64,000 nt of DNA, from the sequence record LC739533.1. One strand, given 5' to 3'. The DNA is from Escherichia phage phiWec179. The notes beneath the pieces are model-generated. The model saw only the letters and a list, made by a program, of their open reading frames with translations, did not search any database and had not been told where the DNA came from. Positions 3,041 to 63,768 of the stretch are shown piece after piece (the first letter of the stretch is position 1; the number at the start of each line of letters is the position of its first letter). Both the position numbers and the translations under genes were made by a program.

Positions 3041-4994
3041 AGTTACCACCAGATTGTCCACTTAAAGTAGCTAAAGTTAAACGGTTGAAAACATTGTTAC
3101 CACTGTTCTGAATACGAGCATCCAACATATTACCAAACTCCGAAGACGGGTTGATTGTTACGTTGATCAGATCACTCGGAATAGCAATCGTGTTTTCTAC
3201 AATAGGTTGGTTACGAGCCAGATTAACGTTTGGCGTATAAGCTGTTTCACGCAAATTCTCTAAAGGATTCCCGAAACCGAAAGCATGTGTTCGAGTTTCT
3301 TCTCCTCGGAACATTCTTCCAACGTCTTGAGTATCAATTCCAGTCCACTTATAAAGGAAGTCGGCTACTGGGTTGGTATCTCCTGATTGTGTTGCGGCGT
3401 ACAATTTGTCCGGTATAGTTTTATTAGGATCAGAATCCGGTCCGAAGATAGATGGTAAGTTTGTCACTAACCATTTATTAATATCTTCCGTGATACCGAT
3501 AATCTCTGTACCAAACTTAGCAACATTCAGTGTGGCATTTGCAAACTCCACCCCAAGATTCTTGGCAAAATTGTCCAAAGATTTAACGTTATCTAACCAA
3601 GATTCGTCTTTAGGTATTGCACTCATAAATCCTTCCAGGAAATAGTTCTGCATCCCTTGACCAACCAAACCTATTGTTGCAGTTAAACGTGTGTACTGTT
3701 TAGAAGCTTCCATTTGCTCATTAGTCAATGCAGCACCAGTACGTTGAAGCATACGGAGGGTTTCTTGGAAGCCTTCTCCGTTCTTGCTAAACATACGTTG
3801 GTAATGCATGAGGTCATCTCCAAGGTTCTCAAGAAGACGACCAATCTGTGCCGAGTTCATGCCGCGACGCTCACCTTCATTCACAGTTGCCTGGATGAAA
3901 GCTAACGGATCGTTCTGCATGTGCTTAATTTGCGAAGGGTTCCAGCCGAACATGTTCATGATATCGTTGATACCGTTGTCCCCGCCACGCCATTTTCCTT
4001 TCTTCTCGTCCCATTCAGAAGCCATCATCGAGTTACCTAAACGTTCACGAACGTCTTTAAGGTTATCGATTGACTTGATAATGTTTGCCGAGTCAACACC
4101 GTTCTGTTCACCCCAAGCAGTCATTGTCATAATGGCGTTGGCGTTTGCCTGAACGTTCTCTGCACCACGACCTACAAACTTGATACGATCATTAGCATTT
4201 TGCAAAGTGTTCCCTACAACAGAGCCACCTGCAAATAACCCTGCACCGATCATAGAAGAAACCATCATACGAGGGTTAAGACCTAAAGCACCATCTCGCA
4301 TTTGGGAATACTTACGTTCCTTATCTCGACGTTGTTGTGCCAATTCTCGTTTATGGTTACGTTCAATATCGCGCAACTCTTTATCACGCATACGTTGACG
4401 TTGCTTGGCTTCTGCTTCCAGTTCTCGACGAATCCTACGGCGACCACGAACCTCATCCTCAATATCTTTCGTTTTTTCTCTGTGGGATTTACGAAGGTTA
4501 TCAAGCTGATGGGCCAGAGTTTGGTTCATACGTTGAAGAGTGATATCTCCACGTTTGTATGATTCTACAGAGGCATCCATGATTTGTTTTGCTTGGCGTT
4601 GTGCATCTATGGAAGCTTTGGTATATTGCATACCACGCTTCTCAAAATTCTCCATGCGGAGGTTGCCTAAATCGTTACGACGAGCTTGGAGTTCTGCTGC
4701 GCGTTCTTCTGGTGTTTTCTTACCTGGTTTCGTTGGACGACCAGGACCGGAGGTAGTTCCACCACCTTTTGGAGCAGAAGGGGGAGCAGGGCGAGCAGGG
4801 AAAGTCTGCGCTTTACGCATTTCTCTTTCGATCTCTTTCATCTGCTGCCTAAATTTACTCATGTTTAAGGTAGGTTGGATTTTTTCAGCGAACCTTTTAA
4901 TACTTTCGACAGAATCTTTGGCCTCTTTGAGACTGTTCTTGTCCACCTTAAATGTGACTACGTTACTGATTTTTGAGGCATTAATATCTAACAA
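3039..4994 (-). CDS. Tail tape measure protein (tentative)
   Basis: 651 aa, long charged coiled-coil region (REK-rich), Gly/Ala-rich segment; sits immediately downstream of frameshifted chaperone pair. Confidence 0.45.
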   Translation of the reverse strand: MLDINASKISNVVTFKVDKNSLKEAKDSVESIKRFAEKIQPTLNMSKFRQQMKEIEREMRKAQTFPARPAPPSAPKGGGTTSGPGRPTKPGKKTPEERAAELQARRNDLGNLRMENFEKRGMQYTKASIDAQRQAKQIMDASVESYKRGDITLQRMNQTLAHQLDNLRKSHREKTKDIEDEVRGRRRIRRELEAEAKQRQRMRDKELRDIERNHKRELAQQRRDKERKYSQMRDGALGLNPRMMVSSMIGAGLFAGGSVVGNTLQNANDRIKFVGRGAENVQANANAIMTMTAWGEQNGVDSANIIKSIDNLKDVRERLGNSMMASEWDEKKGKWRGGDNGINDIMNMFGWNPSQIKHMQNDPLAFIQATVNEGERRGMNSAQIGRLLENLGDDLMHYQRMFSKNGEGFQETLRMLQRTGAALTNEQMEASKQYTRLTATIGLVGQGMQNYFLEGFMSAIPKDESWLDNVKSLDNFAKNLGVEFANATLNVAKFGTEIIGITEDINKWLVTNLPSIFGPDSDPNKTIPDKLYAATQSGDTNPVADFLYKWTGIDTQDVGRMFRGEETRTHAFGFGNPLENLRETAYTPNVNLARNQPIVENTIAIPSDLINVTINPSSEFGNMLDARIQNSGNNVFNRLTLATLSGQSGGN

Positions 4995-5277: not shown

Positions 5278-5760
5278 TTAGTTCGTTGCCAGATCCTGAA
5301 CCGCTTGGAACTGGGTCAACAGTTTTCCGAAACCTCGTTTGAAAAAAGGGCCATAGTTCACCTCAAGAACTTTTGCTGTCAAGTCGAGGACAAGTTCTGG
5401 GTGAGCAAAGAAGAGTTCATCGAAGTTATCAGATACATTATGTCCTGCTTCGGTATATACTTCGTCTAAGATCTTACGGAGGAACACGGTAAGGTTCTTC
5501 TCTTCAAGACCAGAGAACAATTGAATAAGTGCCATTGCAATACGAGATTCCAGATCTTCATCAGCCGACATAAGGGCGGTATTGTACATGGTCATAGGTA
5601 CAGCTAAAACGCTACCGAGTTCTGGAATACGTTCGAAGACCTTTGAAGGACTCCACTTCAGAATACGGAAGGTTACGAAACGGGTTTCATCCAAGTAAAT
5701 TTTTACGATTTCTTCTGGACGTGCATATTGTTTGATAGTATCGTCTTGTTGTTCTGACAT
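5278..5760 (-). CDS. Tail assembly chaperone (G-like)
   Basis: 160 aa ORF between tube and tape measure candidates; contains in-frame slippery site near 3' end. Confidence 0.5.
   Translation of the reverse strand: MSEQQDDTIKQYARPEEIVKIYLDETRFVTFRILKWSPSKVFERIPELGSVLAVPMTMYNTALMSADEDLESRIAMALIQLFSGLEEKNLTVFLRKILDEVYTEAGHNVSDNFDELFFAHPELVLDLTAKVLEVNYGPFFKRGFGKLLTQFQAVQDLATN
5341..5347 (-). other. -1 programmed ribosomal frameshift slippery heptamer T_TTT_TTC
   Basis: Minus-strand sequence ggC_CCT_TTT_TTC_aaa in zero frame of chaperone gene; -1 frame then runs without stops into ORF 5009-5257. Confidence 0.5.
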
Positions 5761-5780
5761 AGTTTCCTCTCTTTTTAGTT

Positions 5781-5806
5781 AAATAAAAAGGGCATTTCTG
5801 CCCTTT
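5781..5806 (-). terminator. Rho-independent terminator after tail tube gene
   Basis: Hairpin GGGCA-GAAA-TGCCC followed by T-run on minus strand. Confidence 0.6.
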
Positions 5807-5811
5807 CGTTA

Positions 5812-6291
5812 TTATTGAATGGTCAGTGCAGAGATAGAGTTAAGAACACTCATACCTACACCAACTTCATTACGTAACAGGCTTGCATCTTTCAGACCGA
5901 TAACCCATTGGTTCTCTGTAATCATTTCGCCCATGGTGTCTTCAGGTTGAGACTGAATCCAACCAATGGTGCTAATGTAATAGCCACGAGGATCTTCCAG
6001 ATAAACGCTGAATGCTACTTGACGAGTAGAATACATTGTTTGAGCATAAGTTGCAAGAACTTCGTTCGCTGGAGATGTACGTTGCAGAGAAATAGTCATG
6101 GTGCCGAGACGGTTGCGGCTAAGAGCCAGAGAAACATCGCCATCAGTACCAGCATATGGGTTAATAATATCGTTGGCTTTTGCGATTACAATTTTAGTGT
6201 CGGTTGCAAAACCCCACGGCTCCCATCCACCCAGGGACAGAACGATTTGGGAAGGATCATAGGCCATTACGCCAGTAAGCATTTTATCCAA
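5812..6291 (-). CDS. Tail tube protein (tentative)
   Basis: 159 aa ORF downstream of sheath candidate, followed by strong terminator; size and position typical of contractile-tail tube. Confidence 0.5.
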   Translation of the reverse strand: MDKMLTGVMAYDPSQIVLSLGGWEPWGFATDTKIVIAKANDIINPYAGTDGDVSLALSRNRLGTMTISLQRTSPANEVLATYAQTMYSTRQVAFSVYLEDPRGYYISTIGWIQSQPEDTMGEMITENQWVIGLKDASLLRNEVGVGMSVLNSISALTIQ

Positions 6292-6337
6292 TTTGGATCT
6301 CCTTTAGGGATAAGGCGAGGTTGCCCCCGCCAAATTA

Positions 6338-7711
6338 TTAGTTTGCAGTACGGTTGGTCAGGACGTGAACCTGAACCTTAACGTAATGGAAGAATCCTGC
6401 GTAAACGTATTCAATCTTCATGCCGTCAACCAGACGCTGATTAATCTGCGAATCAGTCATGTCAGCACGAGAAGGAAGGTAAACGATAGGCTTCAGGTCA
6501 ACACGCAGTCCAGTTTCTTCTGAAACAACCACTTCGTTAGAAATAGAACCGTTCAGAATACCAACTTGGATCGGGTTAGCCAGAACCGCTTGTTTAATCA
6601 GAGCCAGACCATTGGAAGTAGCACGAACACCACCACCCAACATTGACTGCTGTTTGAACAGAGTGAACAGAGATTCTTCGGTACGAGCTTTGAACCACAG
6701 AGCGTGAACTACGTAGTCAGCAAAGAAACCGTTAACCATCAGACCATCGCGGTAGAACAGAGTTGCGTGTTCTTTACGGTAGATGTTACCATTCTGTTGA
6801 ACAATGTTATTTTCCGCAGTCTGACCAAGCTTCTCGATTTCAACTCCAACCAGAGTTTTACCGTGTAGAGTGGTAGTACCAGGCTGTGCAGAGCAGATAG
6901 AACCAACTACGGCAGCTTCTGGGAATACAGAGTCCGCGTCGCTCATCCACAAGGCGAAACAGGTGTTGACGTAACCGAGGTCATTCAAACGCTCAAGAAC
7001 GTTGTCTTCGGCTTTAGTAGTGATACCAACGTCTGAACTGGAGAAGAAGTATACTTTATCATTCTCTTCTACCCAAGCAGCTACATCAAGAATATCTTCA
7101 ACAGCGTGGGAGTCAGACAGAACCCAGAACCAGCTACTATCGATATCGTGCAGAGCGGCGATATCTTCGGTAATGCCGTTAGCGTAGACGGTTTCTTTAG
7201 CGAAGCCGTTTGCATCCAGAGAAGCGTATTTGCCTACAACTGGAGAAACAGTGATCACAGCACCATCGTTAGCAACGGTAAACAGACCACCATAAACTAC
7301 GTCTGCATTGATCATTTCTGTCAGACCAACAACGATTTCTTGTGCTGTTGCAGTGTCGTCAGCAATGAATTTGAAATCTTTCTTGTTCTTGCCTTCTTTG
7401 ATAGTGACAACATATGTTGCACTGTCTTCAACTGCTGGGGTCAGGGTAAAGTTTGTTACTTCACGCTTACCAACAATCACTTGACTTGGTGCGAATAATC
7501 CGTTAAACAGTTTAACTGCCATGATATAGGCTGGATCATTAACACCGTAACCCGCTTCCAGAAGTGCGTCAGAAGAGGTGTAATATTCAATCGCGTTACC
7601 AGTGACAGTCTGACCAGTAAGGATCAGGGGAATGTCAAACTGGGTTTCACGGATTGATGTAGCTCCGTACAGTAAAGTTACGGTTGCTACCTTTTCACGA
7701 AAAGTTGCCAT
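6338..7711 (-). CDS. Tail sheath protein (tentative)
   Basis: 457 aa ORF preceding tube gene; size and order as in P2/Mu-like sheath-tube-chaperone-TMP modules. Confidence 0.5.
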   Translation of the reverse strand: MATFREKVATVTLLYGATSIRETQFDIPLILTGQTVTGNAIEYYTSSDALLEAGYGVNDPAYIMAVKLFNGLFAPSQVIVGKREVTNFTLTPAVEDSATYVVTIKEGKNKKDFKFIADDTATAQEIVVGLTEMINADVVYGGLFTVANDGAVITVSPVVGKYASLDANGFAKETVYANGITEDIAALHDIDSSWFWVLSDSHAVEDILDVAAWVEENDKVYFFSSSDVGITTKAEDNVLERLNDLGYVNTCFALWMSDADSVFPEAAVVGSICSAQPGTTTLHGKTLVGVEIEKLGQTAENNIVQQNGNIYRKEHATLFYRDGLMVNGFFADYVVHALWFKARTEESLFTLFKQQSMLGGGVRATSNGLALIKQAVLANPIQVGILNGSISNEVVVSEETGLRVDLKPIVYLPSRADMTDSQINQRLVDGMKIEYVYAGFFHYVKVQVHVLTNRTAN

Positions 7712-19049: not shown

Positions 19050-19128
19050 GATATTTGGAGGCGGGAATCGGATTCGAACCGATGATCTCCAGCATATGAA
19101 ACTGGCGAGGACGACCAAACTCCTCTAT
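19050..19128 (-). tRNA. tRNA with anticodon CAU (Met or Ile2)
   Basis: Hand-folded: acceptor AGCGGGA/TCCCGCC (1:72 mismatch), anticodon stem CCAGT/GCTGG, loop TTCATAT, T-arm ATCGG-TTCGAAT-CCGAT, encoded CCA. Confidence 0.6.
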
Positions 19129-19134
19129 CCCGCT

Positions 19135-19205
19135 ATTAGGTGTCCCGTGCTGGATTCGAACCAGCATCACAATAAGTTGTGGATCTCTTATCCTGTAAGT
19201 CTAAC
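19135..19205 (-). tRNA. tRNA-like element, non-canonical (no standard anticodon arm found)
   Basis: Perfect T-arm GCTGG-TTCGAAT-CCAGC and near-complementary acceptor strands, but the middle forms a CACAA/TTGTG tetraloop hairpin instead; no encoded CCA. Confidence 0.3.
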
Positions 19206-19206
19206 G

Positions 19207-19280
19207 GGAAACTGGTTGTTTCGACAAGAATCGAACTTGTGTCTCACGATTATCAGTCGTGGGTTCTACCATTGAACTAC
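19207..19280 (-). tRNA. tRNA-Ile (GAU)
   Basis: Acceptor TGTTTCG/CGAAACA, D-arm GTTC-AATGGTA-GAAC, anticodon arm CACGA-CTGATAA-TCGTG, T-arm ACAAG-TTCGATT-CTTGT, encoded ACCA. Confidence 0.75.
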
Positions 19281-19286
19281 GAAACA

Positions 19287-57638: not shown

Positions 57639-58133
57639 ATGTTTCAAGTAGAAATTCATGTGCACAACAGTTGTTCAAATTGCGAAACTTGTGGTTACAA
57701 TAGTTCAACCATGATCACTGTTAGCGGAGACTTAGGACATGCCAAGTTTGGCGAAGTCGCAAGCTGCTTCAGCGGAGAGGATGCAGATTGGCATGATATT
57801 GCTTTGTGGCTATGCGGAAGACTGAATGTAAATTGTAAAGACTTCCCTGAACTGTTGAGCCGAAATCTTATTGATAGTCGGGAACAAGCCTACAATATTT
57901 ATGCCGCTTCTGTTTATGTTGATCATAAATGGGTAGAAGATGAAGAAGCTGAACGTTTGCTGCGCCTCTACTACGAAGCAGAGGAAGCTTATGATAACTA
58001 TTATAGCATGTCCAACATTCTACGCTTGTTTGCAGAGTTTGATATTTACTTTGAAGTGAGTTATTCTGAAGAGGAAGTGTATGATTTTGATGACGATGAT
58101 TACGAGGAGGATGAAGAATGCCAAGACGATTAA
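57639..58133 (+). CDS. Hypothetical Cys-containing acidic protein
   Basis: Start set to ATG 57639 after RBS GGGAGGAAA; C-terminal poly-acidic tail. Confidence 0.4.
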   Translation: MFQVEIHVHNSCSNCETCGYNSSTMITVSGDLGHAKFGEVASCFSGEDADWHDIALWLCGRLNVNCKDFPELLSRNLIDSREQAYNIYAASVYVDHKWVEDEEAERLLRLYYEAEEAYDNYYSMSNILRLFAEFDIYFEVSYSEEEVYDFDDDDYEEDEECQDD

Positions 58134-58918
58134 TAGTGATCAGCGGTGCTGGTCTAAGCGCCGATAGCGGTGTACGTACTTTCCGCACTGATACAGATAG
58201 CGGGAAAGCTTTGTGGGATGAATACGACCTTTCTGAAGTGTGCGATATTTTCAATTTCCGTGCTGGCTACCAGCAAGAACAATGTGTTCCTGGCGCTGCT
58301 GGTGGATTAGATGCAGAGGGATACAACCTCTACCGTAAAACTCACGACTTCTACAATAAACGTCGCGTAGAGATGGATAGTGTGTCTCCTAACGCTGCGC
58401 ATTACCAGATCGCAGAGTGGTTCCAAGAGTACGGCTGCGATCGTGTTATCAACATCACAACAAACGTAGATGATCTTCTGGAACAAGCAGGGGTTGTTCA
58501 TGAAGATGTTCTGCATGTTCACGGCTTCCTGCCTGAAGTGATTGTAGACAATAGAATCATCAAGGATGTTGGTTATGCTGCTATTGATGTAGATGATTAC
58601 AAGTATGTGAAGCCCAATGTAGTGTTCTTTGGGGAGACTGCCCCACTGTATAACGATATGTACCACATCTTAGACGGCTTGACGGCTCAAGATATGGTGG
58701 TTGTAGTGGGCTGCTCTAATCAAGTGATCAACTTCAACTGGGATTTGTTCCCAGCCCTCAACATAGGAACAAAGATGGTCGTAGTTAATCCTGGGGTTAA
58801 TTACGAAGAAACACTTCTCTATGAAGATCGTGGAGTTTTTGTTTACCGAGAAAAAGCTGCAACAGCCTTCAGTAATGAAGGTTTCATTAAAATGATCGAA
58901 GACCACTTAAACAAATAA
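58118..58918 (+). CDS. Sir2-family (sirtuin-like) NAD-dependent protein
   Basis: ISGAGLSADSGVRTFR, VLHVHG, VVFFGE; no obvious Zn-binding Cys tetrad. Confidence 0.6.
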   Translation: MPRRLIVISGAGLSADSGVRTFRTDTDSGKALWDEYDLSEVCDIFNFRAGYQQEQCVPGAAGGLDAEGYNLYRKTHDFYNKRRVEMDSVSPNAAHYQIAEWFQEYGCDRVINITTNVDDLLEQAGVVHEDVLHVHGFLPEVIVDNRIIKDVGYAAIDVDDYKYVKPNVVFFGETAPLYNDMYHILDGLTAQDMVVVVGCSNQVINFNWDLFPALNIGTKMVVVNPGVNYEETLLYEDRGVFVYREKAATAFSNEGFIKMIEDHLNK

Positions 58919-59918: not shown

Positions 59919-60092
59919 TTAAAGTACGATTTTTTCTTCGTCTGGTTTGTCATAATTTGGAGAGTAGACATGTGAAGGGTTGAAACCCTTGAAGCTACCA
60001 CGTCCTTTACGAGGACAGTTGAAAGTACGAGCCTGATGATCACCGAAAGACTTACCACAATGCACACATTTGAAGTTGGTAACTTTATTCAT
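59919..60092 (-). CDS. Zinc-finger small protein
   Basis: CVHCG ... CPRKG Cys pairs; start set to ATG 60092 after RBS AAAGGAGAAG. Confidence 0.45.
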   Translation of the reverse strand: MNKVTNFKCVHCGKSFGDHQARTFNCPRKGRGSFKGFNPSHVYSPNYDKPDEEKIVL

Positions 60093-60248
60093 GTTCTTCT
60101 CCTTTAGGTTAATAGGCTGCACCTATTAAGATGCAGCTTTTGATAGATTACTTAGATGAGTCCAGAATATCTTTTACTTTGGCGATGATAACATCTTGAT
60201 ACTTATGGATGTGATATCCTACTACTAAACCTACGATAAATGCAATCA

Positions 60249-61272: not shown

Positions 61273-61719
61273 TCATAAATCCTCCGGTGTACCAGCACGT
61301 AAAGCAGCTAAAGGTTCGGCTACAGCTTCCAGGGCGGCTTCAATTTGATCTTCAATCACATCACGAACCATTGCAATACGCTCATCAATATGCACAACGA
61401 AAGCATCGCTATAAGCACCAACTAACGTATTGTAAAATGTTTCTTGTGCGCTTAACGCGCCGCTAAGAATGAAATTACGTTGATCTTCAGGTAGTTGTTG
61501 GTGCTCTTCATATTTGGCAAACGTTTCACGGTTGATTTCCAACAGAGTCCCCATCATAAGGTCAAACTGCAAATCTTTGTCCGAGGGATTTCCCATTACA
61601 ATGGTATTGTAAATGTTCAGCAAGCTGGTGCTAACACGAGCATTGTTTTCTACACCTTCCATCTGACGGAAAATAGTTAACACATCAATAGTTTCTTCAA
61701 TCTTTTCGTTTTGGTTCAT
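61273..61719 (-). CDS. Hypothetical protein
   Basis: 148 aa; RBS AGAGGAGAACG. Confidence 0.45.
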   Translation of the reverse strand: MNQNEKIEETIDVLTIFRQMEGVENNARVSTSLLNIYNTIVMGNPSDKDLQFDLMMGTLLEINRETFAKYEEHQQLPEDQRNFILSGALSAQETFYNTLVGAYSDAFVVHIDERIAMVRDVIEDQIEAALEAVAEPLAALRAGTPEDL

Positions 61720-61897
61720 ATACGTTCTCCTCTATTATTGGAAGATATCCTGTAGTTTTACAGGGATTGCACTCATAAAGCTGGCCTACATCAACCATAA
61801 CGTAGCCTAAACCTCCACAATATGGACACTCCATAGGGGTACAAGGTACAGGTGTTGTTACGGTTACATCCACAACACGGGCAATTCTCATTCCCAT
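61697..61897 (-). CDS. Zinc-ribbon small protein
   Basis: CPYCGGLGY ... CNPCKTTGY (CxxCxGxG pairs). Confidence 0.45.
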   Translation of the reverse strand: MGMRIARVVDVTVTTPVPCTPMECPYCGGLGYVMVDVGQLYECNPCKTTGYLPIIEENVYEPKRKD

Positions 61898-62139
61898 TCT
61901 CCTATAAGCTGGGGATTCAAGGCGAATTGTGACATACGTTCAGTGGGAGAGTATAAGTACGGAGGTGTAATTTGCTCCAGCACCTTAGCTGCACGTACTT
62001 CATCTTCCACATCAATATGGAAACCACGTTCCATAGTTAATACGCCATGATCATTAAGAAGGAATAGAGATTCTACTCCATCTACCTTATCAATTGCAAC
62101 ATAAAGTTTAGTCATATTATCTCCATTACCATTCGGCAA
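61888..62139 (-). CDS. Hypothetical protein
   Basis: 83 aa; overlapping coupled start. Confidence 0.4.
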   Translation of the reverse strand: MPNGNGDNMTKLYVAIDKVDGVESLFLLNDHGVLTMERGFHIDVEDEVRAAKVLEQITPPYLYSPTERMSQFALNPQLIGEWE

Positions 62140-62431
62140 TCAGTTGAGGTTTGACAGCAAAAGCTTGAAAGGTTGTAATATCATAAAGAAAGACATTAGT
62201 CGCCTCTTTCAGCTTAGTTGTCATGCCAGCCTTAGTTTCTCCGTTCCACGGGAAGATAGCAACACCTTGCTCTCCAACTAACCACCAGTGGTAATTGCCG
62301 TCACGAAGATCTTTTGCTTTATAAAGATAATTAGTAATCATTGCCACGTTTCTCCCATCTTTGCATCGCCTGTAACCAGCCCTCGGCTCTTTCCCTGGTT
62401 TCGAAGTAGACAGGAATACCCGTCCCTGCAA
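62126..62431 (-). CDS. Hypothetical protein
   Basis: 101 aa. Confidence 0.4.
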   Translation of the reverse strand: MQGRVFLSTSKPGKEPRAGYRRCKDGRNVAMITNYLYKAKDLRDGNYHWWLVGEQGVAIFPWNGETKAGMTTKLKEATNVFLYDITTFQAFAVKPQLIAEW

Positions 62432-62694
62432 ATGTGACCCACCAAGTGAAGATCCACCAACCTGTTTTTATGCGATATCCTGTTTCATATTCGACCACTT
62501 TCATGAGTCACCTTTAAAATCGTCTCACTATATCATTTACTATGTGTGTCTGTCAAGTTTTTCTTAGGGAAGAAGAGATCACAATAATGAATGTAGAAAA
62601 GTTCCACCAAAACCTCATCCTTGTACGACAAACACTGCTCATCCTATTATTTTACATTAAAGCTTGGATAACAACCATCAGACAAATCTTAGTA

Positions 62695-62859
62695 TCATCT
62701 TATGGCTACAAGATAGAAACATAGAACACATCCAACCACACTTACTAAGAAACTGACATAAACAACAAACCTGTTATCGTCCACAATAGCCACAGCTAAT
62801 GCGGCAGATGTTATCAGGAAAAGAACCATCAACAGAATATCCCTGTTTACTGCATCCAT
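62695..62859 (-). CDS. Small membrane protein (54 aa)
   Basis: AGGAGGTG RBS before ATG 62859; mostly hydrophobic; below ORF-track cutoff. Confidence 0.4.
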   Translation of the reverse strand: MDAVNRDILLMVLFLITSAALAVAIVDDNRFVVYVSFLVSVVGCVLCFYLVAIR

Positions 62860-63146
62860 AGACACCTCCTCTTGTTAGTTACAGAGAGTATAATACCGGA
62901 ACGTTACGATTACAACTACGAAGAACGGGTGATTTTTGATTGATAGGTAGGACTTATCTGAAAGGAATAATTGATAGGGAACGCTGTATTGACTTTTGCG
63001 AAAAAACATGCTACCCTAAACATATGTTTACGAGCGATAGCGAGTAGTGATTTCTATAGTATTATTGCATGTTACTCACGATAGGGAGTAAGCAATGTTA
63101 GTGAGGTAGACAGACTATGATCAACCATCTACCTACTAACTATCTA

Positions 63147-63347
63147 TTACTCAGAGAAGGTACATTCGAGTACAGTCCAGACTAATATTACAGTCCAAGA
63201 TGCTAACAGTATCCTGAAGATAGTCCACCAACTAAACACATCTACCGTAATCCAGTGTCCAGCTACCAGTGATCCTGCTAACCAACCTCCTACAACAGTG
63301 ATAACCCAAAGAATAAAACCTATCAAAGAAAACGTAGCAAGTTTCAT
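63147..63347 (-). CDS. Small membrane protein
   Basis: 66 aa, two hydrophobic helices, Trp-rich. Confidence 0.45.
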   Translation of the reverse strand: MKLATFSLIGFILWVITVVGGWLAGSLVAGHWITVDVFSWWTIFRILLASWTVILVWTVLECTFSE

Positions 63348-63628
63348 TAGACTTCTCCTCTATAAAGTTTATCTTCTCTTCTAACTTCAATCTTACACTC
63401 TTTGTCTACCACAATCAAGACTGAACATGAGTAATATCCTTCTGCAACAGTCTCGATCTGTTCTTCCAGATCCTTCGTCAATTCCTCTCCCATGAGATAG
63501 AAGGCAAACTTCGTGCAATGTAATAACTCTTCCTTGAAGTTAACCATCTTGTAGATGTTCATCCCAGTCTTATGTTCATCTACTGTCCAACCACTTGATC
63601 GAAGTCTGACTGCTGCGTTATGTCTCAT
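63347..63628 (-). CDS. Hypothetical protein
   Basis: 93 aa; coupled overlaps on both sides. Confidence 0.4.
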   Translation of the reverse strand: MRHNAAVRLRSSGWTVDEHKTGMNIYKMVNFKEELLHCTKFAFYLMGEELTKDLEEQIETVAEGYYSCSVLIVVDKECKIEVRREDKLYRGEV

Positions 63629-63768
63629 CGTCCGTTACCATTCAATTGATCACGTAGCTTTTCTGCATCTCGTTTCTGTGGGAACGTGGCAACAGAGACA
63701 TTGAATTCATTAACAACAGAAAAGGACTTGTCCAGGTTTTCACGGATAGTAAAAGGTTTCTTGCTCAT
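63625..63768 (-). CDS. Small hypothetical protein (47 aa)
   Basis: ATG 63768 with ATGA overlaps at both ends; below ORF-track cutoff. Confidence 0.3.
   Translation of the reverse strand: MSKKPFTIRENLDKSFSVVNEFNVSVATFPQKRDAEKLRDQLNGNGR

What the first reader, a model, noticed from the sequence alone, without database searches (positions are those of the whole stretch)
62860..63146. Non-coding island with direct repeats ATTGATAGG between small minus-strand genes
This 287-bp region has no plausible ORF. It contains two copies of TTGATAGG(T/G)A 33 bp apart and an inverted repeat AGGTAGA...TCTACCT. It may be an operator or promoter region for the rightmost gene block, or a packaging or replication signal.
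Basis: seen in the sequence. Interest (0 to 1): 0.3.

Follow-up and report, generated by a model that had tools for sequence, protein, structure and literature searches.

The report
Antisense promoter and small RNA island
This gene-free gap in an E. coli phage genome most likely holds a promoter pointing against all neighbouring genes, which would make a small folded non-coding RNA, plus candidate binding sites for a phage zinc-finger protein; no transcript has been measured, and nothing like it was found in Rfam or in the full-text literature searched.

Summary
The window is a Phapecoctavirus genome, 100% identical to phiWec181/186 over the 1.7 kb compared.

**Observation.** The repeats and the inverted repeat are real. 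The island is better conserved than its flanking genes: 82-89% versus 48-67% nucleotide identity to phAPEC8.

**Plus-strand promoter.** The plus strand is antisense to every neighbouring gene. It carries a sigma-70 extended -10 promoter, TTGACT-17-TGcTACCCT (62989-63017).

**Predicted RNA.** The conserved transcribed stretch is about 115 nt and folds into three hairpins.
- HP1 has an invariant CGAGC/GCGAG stem with tandem G·A pairs.
- HP2 carries compensatory changes between phage clades.

**A three-copy family.** This is one of three paralogous promoter-leader modules per genome across Stephanstirmvirinae.
- One copy heads the replication genes.
- One heads the tRNA and structural genes (window 22335-22402).
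- This copy is antisense in all 12 loci examined.

**The ATTGATAGG repeats.** They are two boxes of a conserved three-box array just upstream of the promoter. The same box pattern sits in front of a conserved 57-aa C2H2-like zinc-finger gene (59919-60092), which makes that protein the candidate binder.

**Function (inferred).** A regulated antisense non-coding RNA acting on the early operon. Nothing found in Rfam or the literature. No support for a packaging site or replication origin.

The parts
62939..62947 (+). Its centre is about -81 from the predicted start.
   Evidence: The core AT and G are conserved in 14 lineages. In most lineages the box abuts the Shine-Dalgarno sequence of the next minus-strand gene.
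62953..62960 (+). Box B (CTTATCTG), an inverted and degenerate copy of the box. Other lineages have CCTATCAA. Its centre is about -68.
   Evidence: alignment A8, columns 20-27, AT invariant.
62970..62978 (+). It ends exactly 10 bp before the -35 hexamer in all 14 lineages.
   Evidence: A41 T42 G44 G45 invariant; no indels between the box and the promoter.
62989..63017 (+). Sigma-70-type promoter: -35 TTGACT (62989-62994), a 17-bp spacer, extended -10 TG (63009-63010), and -10 TACCCT (63012-63017).
   Evidence: Unique in this form in the window. The geometry is invariant in 43 distinct copies. Its paralogues sit at the heads of operons. The consensus scan did not list it, because TACCCT matches only 3 of 6 positions of TATAAT.
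63018..63029 (+). Dyad AAACATATGTTT spanning the predicted transcription start (about 63024).
   Evidence: Sequence. The arms covary among copies. Its role is unexplained, because the 5' arm should lie upstream of +1.
63028..63047 (+). HP1: TTA-CGAGC-GATA-GCGAG-TAG, a hairpin with tandem G·A pairs.
   Evidence: The core is invariant in 40 distinct copies. The outer pairs covary (CG 23 / AU 12; the next pair is formed in 39 of 40). There are many U·G pairs, which would be A·C mismatches on the other strand. The covariance model R1 finds only the two copies in the window, both of which were among its training sequences.
63064..63096 (+). HP2: outer stem ATTGC/GCAAT and inner stem TTACTC/GAGTAA, with loop ACGATAGG.
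   Evidence: Two compensatory pair changes between the window clade and the phAPEC8 clade. A UUYCAUG...CAUGRAA hairpin sits at the same place in other lineages.
63097..63140 (+). HP3: GTTAGT-g-AGGTAGA ... It is followed by a pyrimidine-rich tail, TATCTATTACTC.
   Evidence: The stem core is invariant in Phapecoctavirus. The conserved block ends here.
63024..63146 (+). Predicted non-coding RNA of about 115-125 nt, antisense to the early polycistronic transcript. Both ends are predicted, not mapped.
62887..62915 (-). Weak promoter-like site (TTGTAA-17-TATACT) for the next minus-strand gene (62695-62859).
   Evidence: It lies in the part of the island that does not align with phAPEC8.
22335..22402 (-). 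Paralogous copy (class ii): TTGACT-17-TGaTACCCT plus CGAGC-GCA-GCGAG. It sits at a divergent junction upstream of small ORFs and the tRNA cluster.
   Evidence: tRNAs.
60122..60146 (-). Second box array (O2): CTATCAA-N10-TTAATAGG-N6-CTATTAA. The central box lies in the loop of a covarying hairpin. The array sits directly upstream of the ribosome-binding site of the zinc-finger gene.
59919..60092 (-). Gene for a conserved 57-aa C2H2-like zinc-finger protein, the candidate binder of the boxes.
   Evidence: 74-87% amino-acid identity across genera. The profile matches classical C2H2 fingers in the PDB (E 3.6e-11 and 1.9e-6). Pfam matches are sub-threshold only, and the PHROG family has no known function.

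Best explanation
The island is a compact regulatory node whose main conserved content is on the plus strand, antisense to all surrounding genes.

**Promoter.** A host sigma-70 extended -10 promoter (TTGACT, 17 bp, TGcTACCCT) starts transcription near 63024.

**RNA.** It makes a non-coding RNA of about 115-125 nt that folds into three hairpins:
- HP1, with an invariant CGAGC/GCGAG stem containing tandem G·A pairs.
- HP2.

**Family.** The promoter and HP1 form one of three paralogous modules per genome. One module heads the replication and nucleotide-metabolism operon. One heads the tRNA and structural operon. This one is always an orphan pointing against the early-gene cluster.

**Boxes.** The same box pattern lies in front of a conserved 57-aa C2H2-like zinc-finger gene 2.8 kb away. 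That protein is therefore the likely binder, and it would tie the output of this promoter to its own level.

**What is shown.** The conservation, the paralogy, the orientation, the hairpin covariation and the sharing of the box motif.

**What is inferred.**
- That the promoter is active.
- The ends of the RNA.
- That the zinc-finger protein binds the boxes.
- That the RNA acts in cis. It would pair with the early read-through transcript that crosses the island (a perfect duplex of about 115 bp, a substrate for RNase III), and its promoter would fire head-on against early transcription. Either effect would uncouple or lower expression of the distal early genes once this promoter class is active.
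For: **Conservation**
- The island core aligns at about 84% identity in 65 further phage records where megablast aligns none of the flanking genes.
- Against phAPEC8 the core is 82-89% identical and the flanking genes are 48-67% identical.

**Promoter**
- The -35, the 17-bp spacing, the TG and TACCCTA are invariant in 43 distinct copies.
- The paralogous copies sit where promoters are needed: a divergent junction before the tRNA and terminase genes, and the head of the replication cluster.

**Independent unit**
- In phi92 one copy is co-oriented with its neighbouring genes and another is antisense to them.
- Class iii is antisense to the ORFs on both sides in all 12 loci examined.

**RNA structure on the plus strand**
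- HP1 covariation score is 0.27 against 0.16 in shuffles (0 of 500 reach it), and slid controls score 0.06-0.12.
- HP1 has many U·G pairs.
- HP2 has two compensatory changes and U·G pairs.
- Folding z-scores are -3.3 for the phAPEC8 and phi92 versions.

**A short RNA rather than a long transcript**
- 73-130 nt of gene-free space is kept downstream of the start in every lineage.
- The conserved block ends at HP3.

**Boxes and the zinc-finger gene**
- There are no indels between the boxes and the -35 in 14 lineages.
- The B-N(9-11)-C pattern gives 13 strand-wise hits in 508 kb. Twelve lie upstream of this promoter class or upstream of the zinc-finger gene; the thirteenth (L243) is of unknown context.
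- The zinc-finger profile matches C2H2 fingers.
- Class iii promoters often have a weakened -35 (TTTACT), whereas classes i and ii always have TTGAC.
Against: - No transcript data exist, and no paper was found.
- TACCCT matches only 3 of 6 positions of the -10 consensus, and the promoter scan did not list it.
- No intrinsic terminator was detected, so the 3' end is a guess.
- The window's own RNA folds only marginally better than shuffles (z = -1.3).
- A covarying dyad overlaps the predicted start. This is hard to reconcile with that start site.
- The gene convergent with the RNA is not conserved between genera, so no single antisense target gene is conserved.
- Read on the minus strand, the boxes have the same order as the array before the zinc-finger gene, and in most lineages they abut a ribosome-binding site. 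They could therefore serve the minus-strand mRNA rather than this promoter.
- The HP1 core also occurs in unrelated bacterial intergenic repeats. It may be a generic stable hairpin rather than a specific binding site.
- The structure model of the zinc-finger protein has low confidence (pLDDT 58).
Confidence: 0.55

Rival explanations
1. The promoter-leader is the entry point for long, termination-resistant antisense transcription. HP1/HP2 would be a promoter-proximal RNA element, working like HK022 put or lambda nut, that modifies RNA polymerase. The three copies would then drive the two long operons, while this copy sweeps back through about 30 kb of early genes to shut them off.
For: The same promoter and HP1 head a 33-kb and a 43-kb transcription unit. 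The structural unit contains several predicted terminators and no annotated internal promoters. The HP1 stem is sequence-invariant, as a factor-binding or polymerase-binding site would be. Orientation against the early cluster is universal.
Against: There is no sequence or Rfam similarity to any known antitermination RNA. Conservation stops about 115 nt after the start, and gene-free space is reserved for just that length. Antisense RNA here is untranslated and C-rich/G-poor, which makes it a natural Rho substrate (inference). No candidate factor was identified.
Confidence: 0.15
2. The conserved elements serve the minus strand. The boxes would be an operator or a 5'-UTR element controlling the next minus-strand gene. 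The hairpins would be inter-cistronic processing or stability structures in the early mRNA. The plus-strand promoter-like motif would be incidental.
For: Read on the minus strand, the box order equals that of the array before the zinc-finger gene. In most lineages box A abuts the Shine-Dalgarno sequence of the downstream gene. The downstream gene group (the AEW-family and CxxCxGxG genes) is syntenic across genera. A minus-strand promoter-like site exists.
Against: The U·G pairs in HP1 and HP2 become A·C mismatches on the minus strand. The tandem G·A pairs become C·U. In phi92 the same module is found co-oriented with genes, and the other two copies head plus-oriented units, so the module has its own polarity. 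The -35/TG/-10 geometry is invariant in 43 copies, which an incidental motif would not be.
Confidence: 0.12
3. The element is a mobile or recombinogenic promoter-hairpin cassette of the PeSL type. Under this view the antisense copy is a by-product of modular shuffling and has no function of its own.
For: The module is repeated in the genome. A second and much more numerous promoter-plus-hairpin cassette class exists in the early region. Gene content next to the island differs between genera.
Against: The copy number is fixed at three. Each copy has its own conserved upstream signature and a syntenic position across at least 6 lineages. The island is more conserved than the neighbouring genes.
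Confidence: 0.08
4. The island is a replication origin, with iteron-like GATAGG boxes and a promoter whose transcript primes or activates replication, as at T4 oriF/oriG or lambda ori.
For: There are repeated boxes, an AT-rich neighbourhood, a promoter not linked to any gene, and a conserved GATC in the HP3 loop.
Against: The box pattern is shared with a site in front of a zinc-finger gene rather than forming an iteron array. Cumulative GC skew turns only where gene orientation turns, with no local signal here. The RNA is G-poor, which disfavours stable R-loops (general knowledge).
Confidence: 0.05

Closest known systems
Short cis-antisense RNAs of phages (lambda OOP RNA, P22 sar RNA) - own knowledge
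   Same: A small non-coding RNA made by host RNA polymerase from a dedicated promoter that points against neighbouring genes. It overlaps the end or intergenic part of an operon transcript, so the duplex can be cut by RNase III and the two transcriptions collide.
   Different: There is no sequence relation. This RNA has three hairpins, an upstream three-box array, and a promoter-leader shared with two operon heads. Its target and effect are untested, and the convergent gene differs between genera.
PeSL promoter/stem-loop cassettes of T4-type phages (PMC2839356, PMC4122927)
   Same: Conserved composite motifs made of a sigma-70 early promoter plus a stem-loop, repeated in intergenic regions of large virulent coliphages.
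   Different: In a PeSL the stem-loop (terminator) precedes the promoter. Copies are many, are co-oriented with genes, and lie at shuffling breakpoints. Here the hairpin follows the promoter, there are exactly three syntenic copies, and one is antisense.
Promoter-proximal antitermination RNAs (HK022 put, lambda nut) - own knowledge
   Same: Paralogous structured RNA elements just downstream of the promoters that head long phage operons.
   Different: No homology, and no Rfam match. Here the stem sequence is invariant and the loop varies, which is the reverse of boxB. No antitermination was tested.
Single-finger C2H2-type DNA binders (GAGA factor, Ros/MucR) - own knowledge
   Same: One zinc finger plus a basic stretch that recognises a short purine-rich site. 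The phage protein carries the Y/F-K-C-x-x-C-G-K-S-F signature and matches C2H2 fingers.
   Different: The ligand pattern is C-x2-C-x6-H-x6-C. Pfam matches are below threshold. Binding to the boxes is untested and could be to DNA or to RNA loops.
GCGAAGC-type ultra-stable mini-hairpins and the bacterial intergenic repeat GTCATTCCGAGCGAAGCGAGGAATC
   Same: The same apex, (C)CGAGCG-A/TA/AA-AGCGAG(G), with tandem G·A pairs and a G...A loop closure.
   Different: Those repeats are unrelated in context. Here the hairpin is always coupled to the TACCCT promoter: 2 of 2 occurrences in the window.

Membership tests
Sigma-70 extended -10 promoter | -35 hexamer close to TTGACA | tested here: met
   TTGACT at 62989-62994, 5 of 6. 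All class i and ii copies have TTGAC; many class iii copies have TTTACT.
Sigma-70 extended -10 promoter | Spacing of 16-18 bp and a TG one base upstream of the -10 hexamer | tested here: met
   A 17-bp spacer and TGc directly before TACCCT, in all 43 copies.
Sigma-70 extended -10 promoter | -10 hexamer close to TATAAT | tested here: inconclusive
   TACCCT keeps T-12, A-11 and T-7, which is only 3 of 6. The consensus scan did not list it.
Sigma-70 extended -10 promoter | A transcript 5' end 6-8 nt downstream of the -10 hexamer | not testable with these tools
   No transcript data. A covarying dyad overlaps the predicted start.
Any described RNA family (Rfam 15) | Match to a covariance model at or near its gathering score | tested here: not met
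   Only tRNAs in the window. The best hit in 62800-63250 is a nematode snoRNA at 14.8 bits against a gathering score of 60, E = 2.7.
Structured non-coding RNA | Base pairs kept through compensatory changes | tested here: met
   HP1. HP2. The sequences are related, so the shuffle counts are not probabilities.
Structured non-coding RNA | Strand assignment from G·U pairs | tested here: met
   21 U·G pairs at one HP1 pair, plus U·G pairs in HP2. All are on the promoter's strand.
Intrinsic terminator at the 3' end | A G+C-rich hairpin followed directly by a run of U | tested here: not met
   No site found in 62300-63700. HP3 is followed by ACUAACUAUCUAUUACUC.
PeSL cassette | A stem-loop upstream of an early promoter, in many copies, co-oriented with genes | tested here: not met
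   The hairpin is downstream of the promoter, there are three copies, and this one is antisense.
RfaH ops element | GGCGGTAGnnTG, with G5 and T6 essential (consensus recalled from memory) | tested here: not met
   The HP1 apex GCGATAGCG differs from GCGGTAGCG at G5. The loop varies among copies (GAA, GCA, GAAA, GGGA).
Type I toxin-antitoxin (small membrane toxin plus convergent antisense RNA) | A conserved small hydrophobic protein gene overlapped by the RNA | tested here: not met
   The convergent gene encodes a 66-aa membrane protein here and in phAPEC8. In phi92, Tr1 and the Klebsiella phages it encodes unrelated soluble proteins.
Iteron-type replication origin | An array of several direct repeats, with a strand-composition turn at the site | tested here: not met
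   Three boxes in mixed orientation, shared with a gene's upstream region. The skew turns only at gene-orientation switches.
C2H2 zinc finger (for the candidate regulator) | Match to the family profile above the curated threshold | tested here: inconclusive
   Pfam zf-C2H2 scores 13.6 bits against a cut-off of 25.2. A profile of 6 homologues matches PDB C2H2 fingers at E = 3.6e-11 and 1.9e-6 over residues 5-23. The model gives a beta-beta-alpha order at pLDDT 58.

The most novel reading that the evidence does not exclude
Stephanstirmvirinae phages run part of their temporal programme through a previously undescribed three-member regulon. Each member is a TACCCT promoter with an invariant tandem-G·A leader hairpin. 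The orphan third member makes an anti-early non-coding RNA, and its promoter is set by a phage-encoded, Krüppel-like single zinc-finger protein that also autoregulates its own gene through the same boxes.
Probability: 0.2. Interest if true: 0.7.

Novelty: new member of a known kind. Interest (0 to 1): 0.5.

Why it matters
Phages of this subfamily (phAPEC8, phi92 and many therapy candidates) have almost no mapped regulation. The genes around this site are all annotated as hypothetical.

If the reading is right, it gives four things:
- A first handle on how these phages switch between gene classes.
- A new conserved non-coding RNA and leader family that could be added to RNA databases.
- A correction to the existing annotation. 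The small ORFs called across the island are unlikely to be genes, and the 'PHIRE promoters' of phAPEC8 appear to be hairpins sitting after sigma-70 promoters.
- A concrete, cheap experiment that pairs a 57-aa zinc-finger protein with an 8-bp box.

The tandem-G·A hairpin also recurs in unrelated bacterial repeats. It may therefore be a general stable RNA building block worth characterising.

Tried and rejected
- **Rfam.** At gathering threshold and at E <= 10 there was nothing beyond tRNAs. Related loci gave nothing either.
- **Consensus scan.** It missed the plus-strand promoter and found no terminator.
- **Leaderless 7-codon ORF** (ATGTTTACGAGCGATAGCGAGTAG). Rejected, because the ATG is absent in phi92, Tr1 and the Klebsiella copies.
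- **Type I toxin-antitoxin idea.** Rejected, because the convergent gene is not conserved.
- **Origin idea.** GC skew is uninformative and only follows gene orientation.
- **Trans-acting seed idea.** The complement of the conserved 3' tail is not enriched in the window: 6 matches against 5.5 expected.
- **RfaH ops resemblance.** Rejected on the variable loop and the missing G5.
- **Pfam on ten neighbouring proteins.** Nothing informative.
- **Literature searches** on the phage group, its promoters and transcriptomes, and on the hairpin sequence found nothing relevant.
- **First short pattern scan of viral contigs** returned mostly chance matches.
- **Marine podovirus-like family with a similar TACCCTA...CGAGCGAAGCGAG pair.** It may be a chance match of a short pattern and was not used as evidence.
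- **AlphaFold model of the zinc-finger protein.** Its confidence was too low to justify a fold search.
- **Alignment of class iii RNAs across genera.** It was too divergent beyond HP1 for RNAalifold. HP2 in other genera rests on single-sequence folds.

Full report
**What the window is.** The last 1.7 kb of the window is 100% identical to Escherichia phages phiWec181 and phiWec186 (Phapecoctavirus, Stephanstirmvirinae). The finding lies between two small minus-strand genes, 63147-63347 and 62695-62859. These sit inside a long minus-strand cluster of hypothetical genes.

**Checking the observation.**
- ATTGATAGG occurs at 62939 and 62970, with a spacing of 31 bp rather than 33.
- AGGTAGA/TCTACCT is the core of a 13-bp stem at 63097-63140.
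- The only ORFs are 35-44 aa. The small ORFs that some records call here do not agree with each other.
- Alone, the repeats are near chance level.
- The island is nevertheless the one piece of this region that megablast still aligns in 65 more distant phage records, at about 84% identity.
- Against phAPEC8 the island core is 82-89% identical, while the neighbouring genes are 48-67% identical.

**What is conserved: a plus-strand promoter.**
- Alignments across genera show that the best-kept core is TTGACT, a 17-bp spacer ending in TGc, then TACCCTA. It occupies 62989-63018 on the plus strand, opposite to all nearby genes.
- About 13 nt further on comes the hairpin CGAGC-GATA-GCGAG.
- In phi92 a copy of the same module is co-oriented with its neighbouring genes, and another is antisense to them. 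The module therefore has a polarity of its own.
- TACCCT matches only 3 of 6 consensus positions, and the scan tool did not list it.
- It does keep the three key positions, has an extended -10 TG, and has a near-consensus -35 at the optimal spacing.
- This geometry is invariant in 43 distinct copies gathered from phage records, viral contigs and metagenomes.

**A three-copy family.** Profile searches of whole genomes find exactly three copies.

| Copy | phAPEC8 position | Strand | What it does there |
|---|---|---|---|
| i | 134.5 kb | minus | Heads the leftward replication and nucleotide-metabolism cluster |
| ii | 57.9 kb | plus | Sits at a divergent junction before three small ORFs, the tRNA cluster, terminase and the structural genes |
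| iii | 20.4 kb | minus | Lies inside the rightward early cluster and points against it |

- The finding is copy iii.
- The window also contains copy ii, at 22402-22335 on the minus strand, upstream of the tRNA genes.
- Copy i lies at 2750-2815 of phiWec186, outside the window.
- Each class has its own upstream signature.
- In 12 loci from at least six lineages, class iii has opposite-strand ORFs on both sides. Classes i and ii have same-strand ORFs downstream.
- In the window, the hairpin motif occurs only after the two TACCCT promoters. A covariance model finds only those two sites, both of which were among its training sequences.

**The RNA.**
- HP1 (63028-63047) has an invariant core of C-G, G·A, A·G, G-C, C-G. 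Its loop varies among copies: GAA, GATA, GAAA, GCA or GGGA.
- The outer pairs of HP1 covary (CG 23 / AU 12; the next-but-one pair is formed in 39 of 40). They include many U·G pairs, which would be mismatches on the other strand.
- HP2 (63064-63096) shows two compensatory changes between the window clade and the phAPEC8 clade. Other lineages have a UUYCAUG...CAUGRAA hairpin at the same place.
It is followed by a pyrimidine-rich tail, and conservation stops there.
- The phAPEC8 and phi92 versions fold clearly better than shuffles (z = -3.3). The window's version does so only marginally (z = -1.3).
- Every lineage keeps 73-130 nt of gene-free DNA after the predicted start.
- Together these points favour a discrete RNA of about 115-125 nt. 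Neither end has been measured, and no intrinsic terminator is detected.

**The direct repeats.**
- An alignment of 14 class iii upstream regions has no indels from the boxes to the -35.
- It shows three boxes: A (ATAGG-type), B (the inverted copy, CCTATCAA, degenerate in the window as CTTATCTG) and C (TTRATMGG). Box C ends exactly 10 bp before the -35.
- The B-N(9-11)-C pattern gives 13 strand-wise hits in 508 kb of related sequence. Twelve lie upstream of class iii promoters or directly upstream of the ribosome-binding site of a 57-aa protein gene (window 59919-60092; box array at 60122-60146). The one exception, in L243, is of unknown context.
- In that second array the central box sits in the loop of a covarying hairpin.
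- The protein is 74-87% identical across genera and is restricted to these phages.
- It carries the F/Y-K-C-x-x-C-G-K-S-F signature, and its profile matches classical C2H2 zinc fingers.
- Against that, the Pfam matches are below threshold, the PHROG family has no known function, and the structure model is weak.
- A motif found in front of a regulator-like gene and in front of a second promoter is the usual pattern of an autoregulated DNA-binding protein. This is an inference.
- The boxes could instead act in the minus-strand mRNA. Read on that strand, both arrays have the same order and lie next to a ribosome-binding site in most lineages.

**How it most likely works.**
- Shown: a conserved, self-oriented promoter-leader module; its three fixed genomic positions; plus-strand RNA structure; and a shared box motif.
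- Inferred: host RNA polymerase starts near 63024 and makes a small structured RNA. That RNA is perfectly complementary to the part of the early polycistronic transcript that crosses the island, just upstream of a syntenic group of distal early genes.
- Duplex formation (giving RNase III cleavage) and head-on transcription would then lower or uncouple expression of those genes.
- The timing would be set by whatever controls the TACCCT promoters, and for this copy by the box-binding protein.
- The weaker -35 (TTTACT) in most class iii copies fits dependence on a bound factor.
- I put 0.55 on this package. The promoter and RNA parts are much firmer than the mode of action.

**Rivals.**
- A put/nut-like leader that makes polymerase termination-resistant, so that this copy sweeps back over the early genes (0.15).
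- A purely minus-strand regulatory region (0.12). The strand-specific wobble pairs and the module's own polarity argue against it.
- A PeSL-like shuffling cassette with no function of its own (0.08).
- A replication origin (0.05). No skew signal, no iteron array, and a G-poor RNA.

**Comparison with what is known.** It works most like the short cis-antisense RNAs of lambda and P22. It looks most like the promoter-stem-loop cassettes (PeSLs) of T4-type phages (PMC2839356, PMC4122927). It fails the defining features of PeSLs, of intrinsic terminators, of the RfaH ops element, of type I toxin-antitoxin pairs and of iteron origins. It matches no Rfam family. No paper on it was found.

**Unexplained.**
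- A dyad between TACCCT and HP1 (window AAACATATGTTT, 63018-63029) has covarying arms among copies. It overlaps the predicted start, so its 5' arm should not be in the RNA.
- GATAG occurs four times on the plus strand of the island: twice in the boxes and twice in RNA hairpin loops.
- The HP1 core is also the apex of abundant bacterial intergenic repeats.

**Verdict.** The element is a new, well-conserved member of a known kind, of moderate interest. It comes with a specific testable lead, the pairing of the zinc-finger protein with the box.

Noticed in passing
window 22335-22402 (minus strand); about 225 nt of non-coding sequence follows, down to about 22150: A second copy of the TACCCT promoter plus tandem-G·A hairpin, at a divergent junction. 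About 225 nt of non-coding sequence follows it, then another promoter-like site (TTGACT...TTAGAGT) before the first small ORF and the tRNA cluster. This copy may also make a stand-alone RNA.
   Followed up: partly
L162/L164 (phAPEC8), e.g. record 556-575, 3202-3221, 143712-143731; phiWec186 137.6-144.8 kb (outside the window): The 20-mers annotated in phAPEC8 as 'promoters determined with PHIRE' appear to be a conserved hairpin (GGGCGGCAATGGTGCCGC or GGCGGGGAATAGTTCCCC) sitting directly after ordinary TTGACA-17-TAnAAT promoters. This is a second and numerous promoter-plus-5'-hairpin cassette class in the early region.
   Followed up: partly
window 59919-60146 (minus strand): A 57-aa protein with a eukaryote-like C2H2 signature (F-K-C-V-H-C-G-K-S-F). 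It is highly conserved across genera. Its gene is preceded by a three-box array whose central box lies in the loop of a covarying hairpin (GCTGCA/TGCAGC, GCTACT/TGTAGC, GCTGTA/TACAGC).
   Followed up: partly
L131 2033-2161, also L132, L136, L138, L139, L145 and others: Unrelated viral contigs carry a divergent pair of TATACCCTATCCCCCCCAA-CGAGCGAAGCGAG-TGGG modules just upstream of a terminase large subunit gene and a portal gene. This may be convergence or a chance pattern match.
   Followed up: partly
L203, L213, L214, L219, L223, L230, L239 (metagenome contigs): The hairpin core CCGAGCG(A/TA)AGCGAGG is the apex of a widespread bacterial intergenic repeat, GTCAT(T/C)CCGAGCGAAGCGAGG(A/G)AT. 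This suggests a generic, very stable tandem-G·A hairpin.
   Followed up: no
L160 15512-17058 (phiWec186 record 132962-134508) and phAPEC8 record 5513-7021; outside the window: A stretch of about 1.5 kb with no annotated gene inside the early cluster, present in both phage types. It has several long imperfect inverted repeats and no Rfam match.
   Followed up: partly
window 63018-63029 and the equivalent position in all copies: A dyad with covarying arms (AAACAT/ATGTTT, ACCC/GGGT, ACCT/AGGT, AACC/GGTT, CAC/GTG) lies between the -10 hexamer and HP1, overlapping the predicted start site.
   Followed up: partly
L004 2038-2140 (phi92, copy i) and other class i leaders: In class i leaders the U-rich stretch after HP1 (GUAUUCUCU) pairs with the Shine-Dalgarno region (AGGAGAAU) of the first gene. 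This encloses HP2, so the leader may also gate translation (z = -4.1).
   Followed up: no
window 62126-62431, 61888-62139 and 61697-61897 (minus strand): Just downstream of the island on the minus strand lie two paralogous small genes ending in ...LIAEW(E), and a gene with two CxxCxGxG (DnaJ-type) zinc motifs. The group is syntenic with the island in phAPEC8, phi92 and the Klebsiella phages.
   Followed up: partly
window 19056-21113 and 58118-58918: A cluster of ten tRNA genes on the minus strand. An ORF on the plus strand corresponds in position to phAPEC8's annotated Sir2-like gene, at the point where the two gene clusters converge.
   Followed up: no
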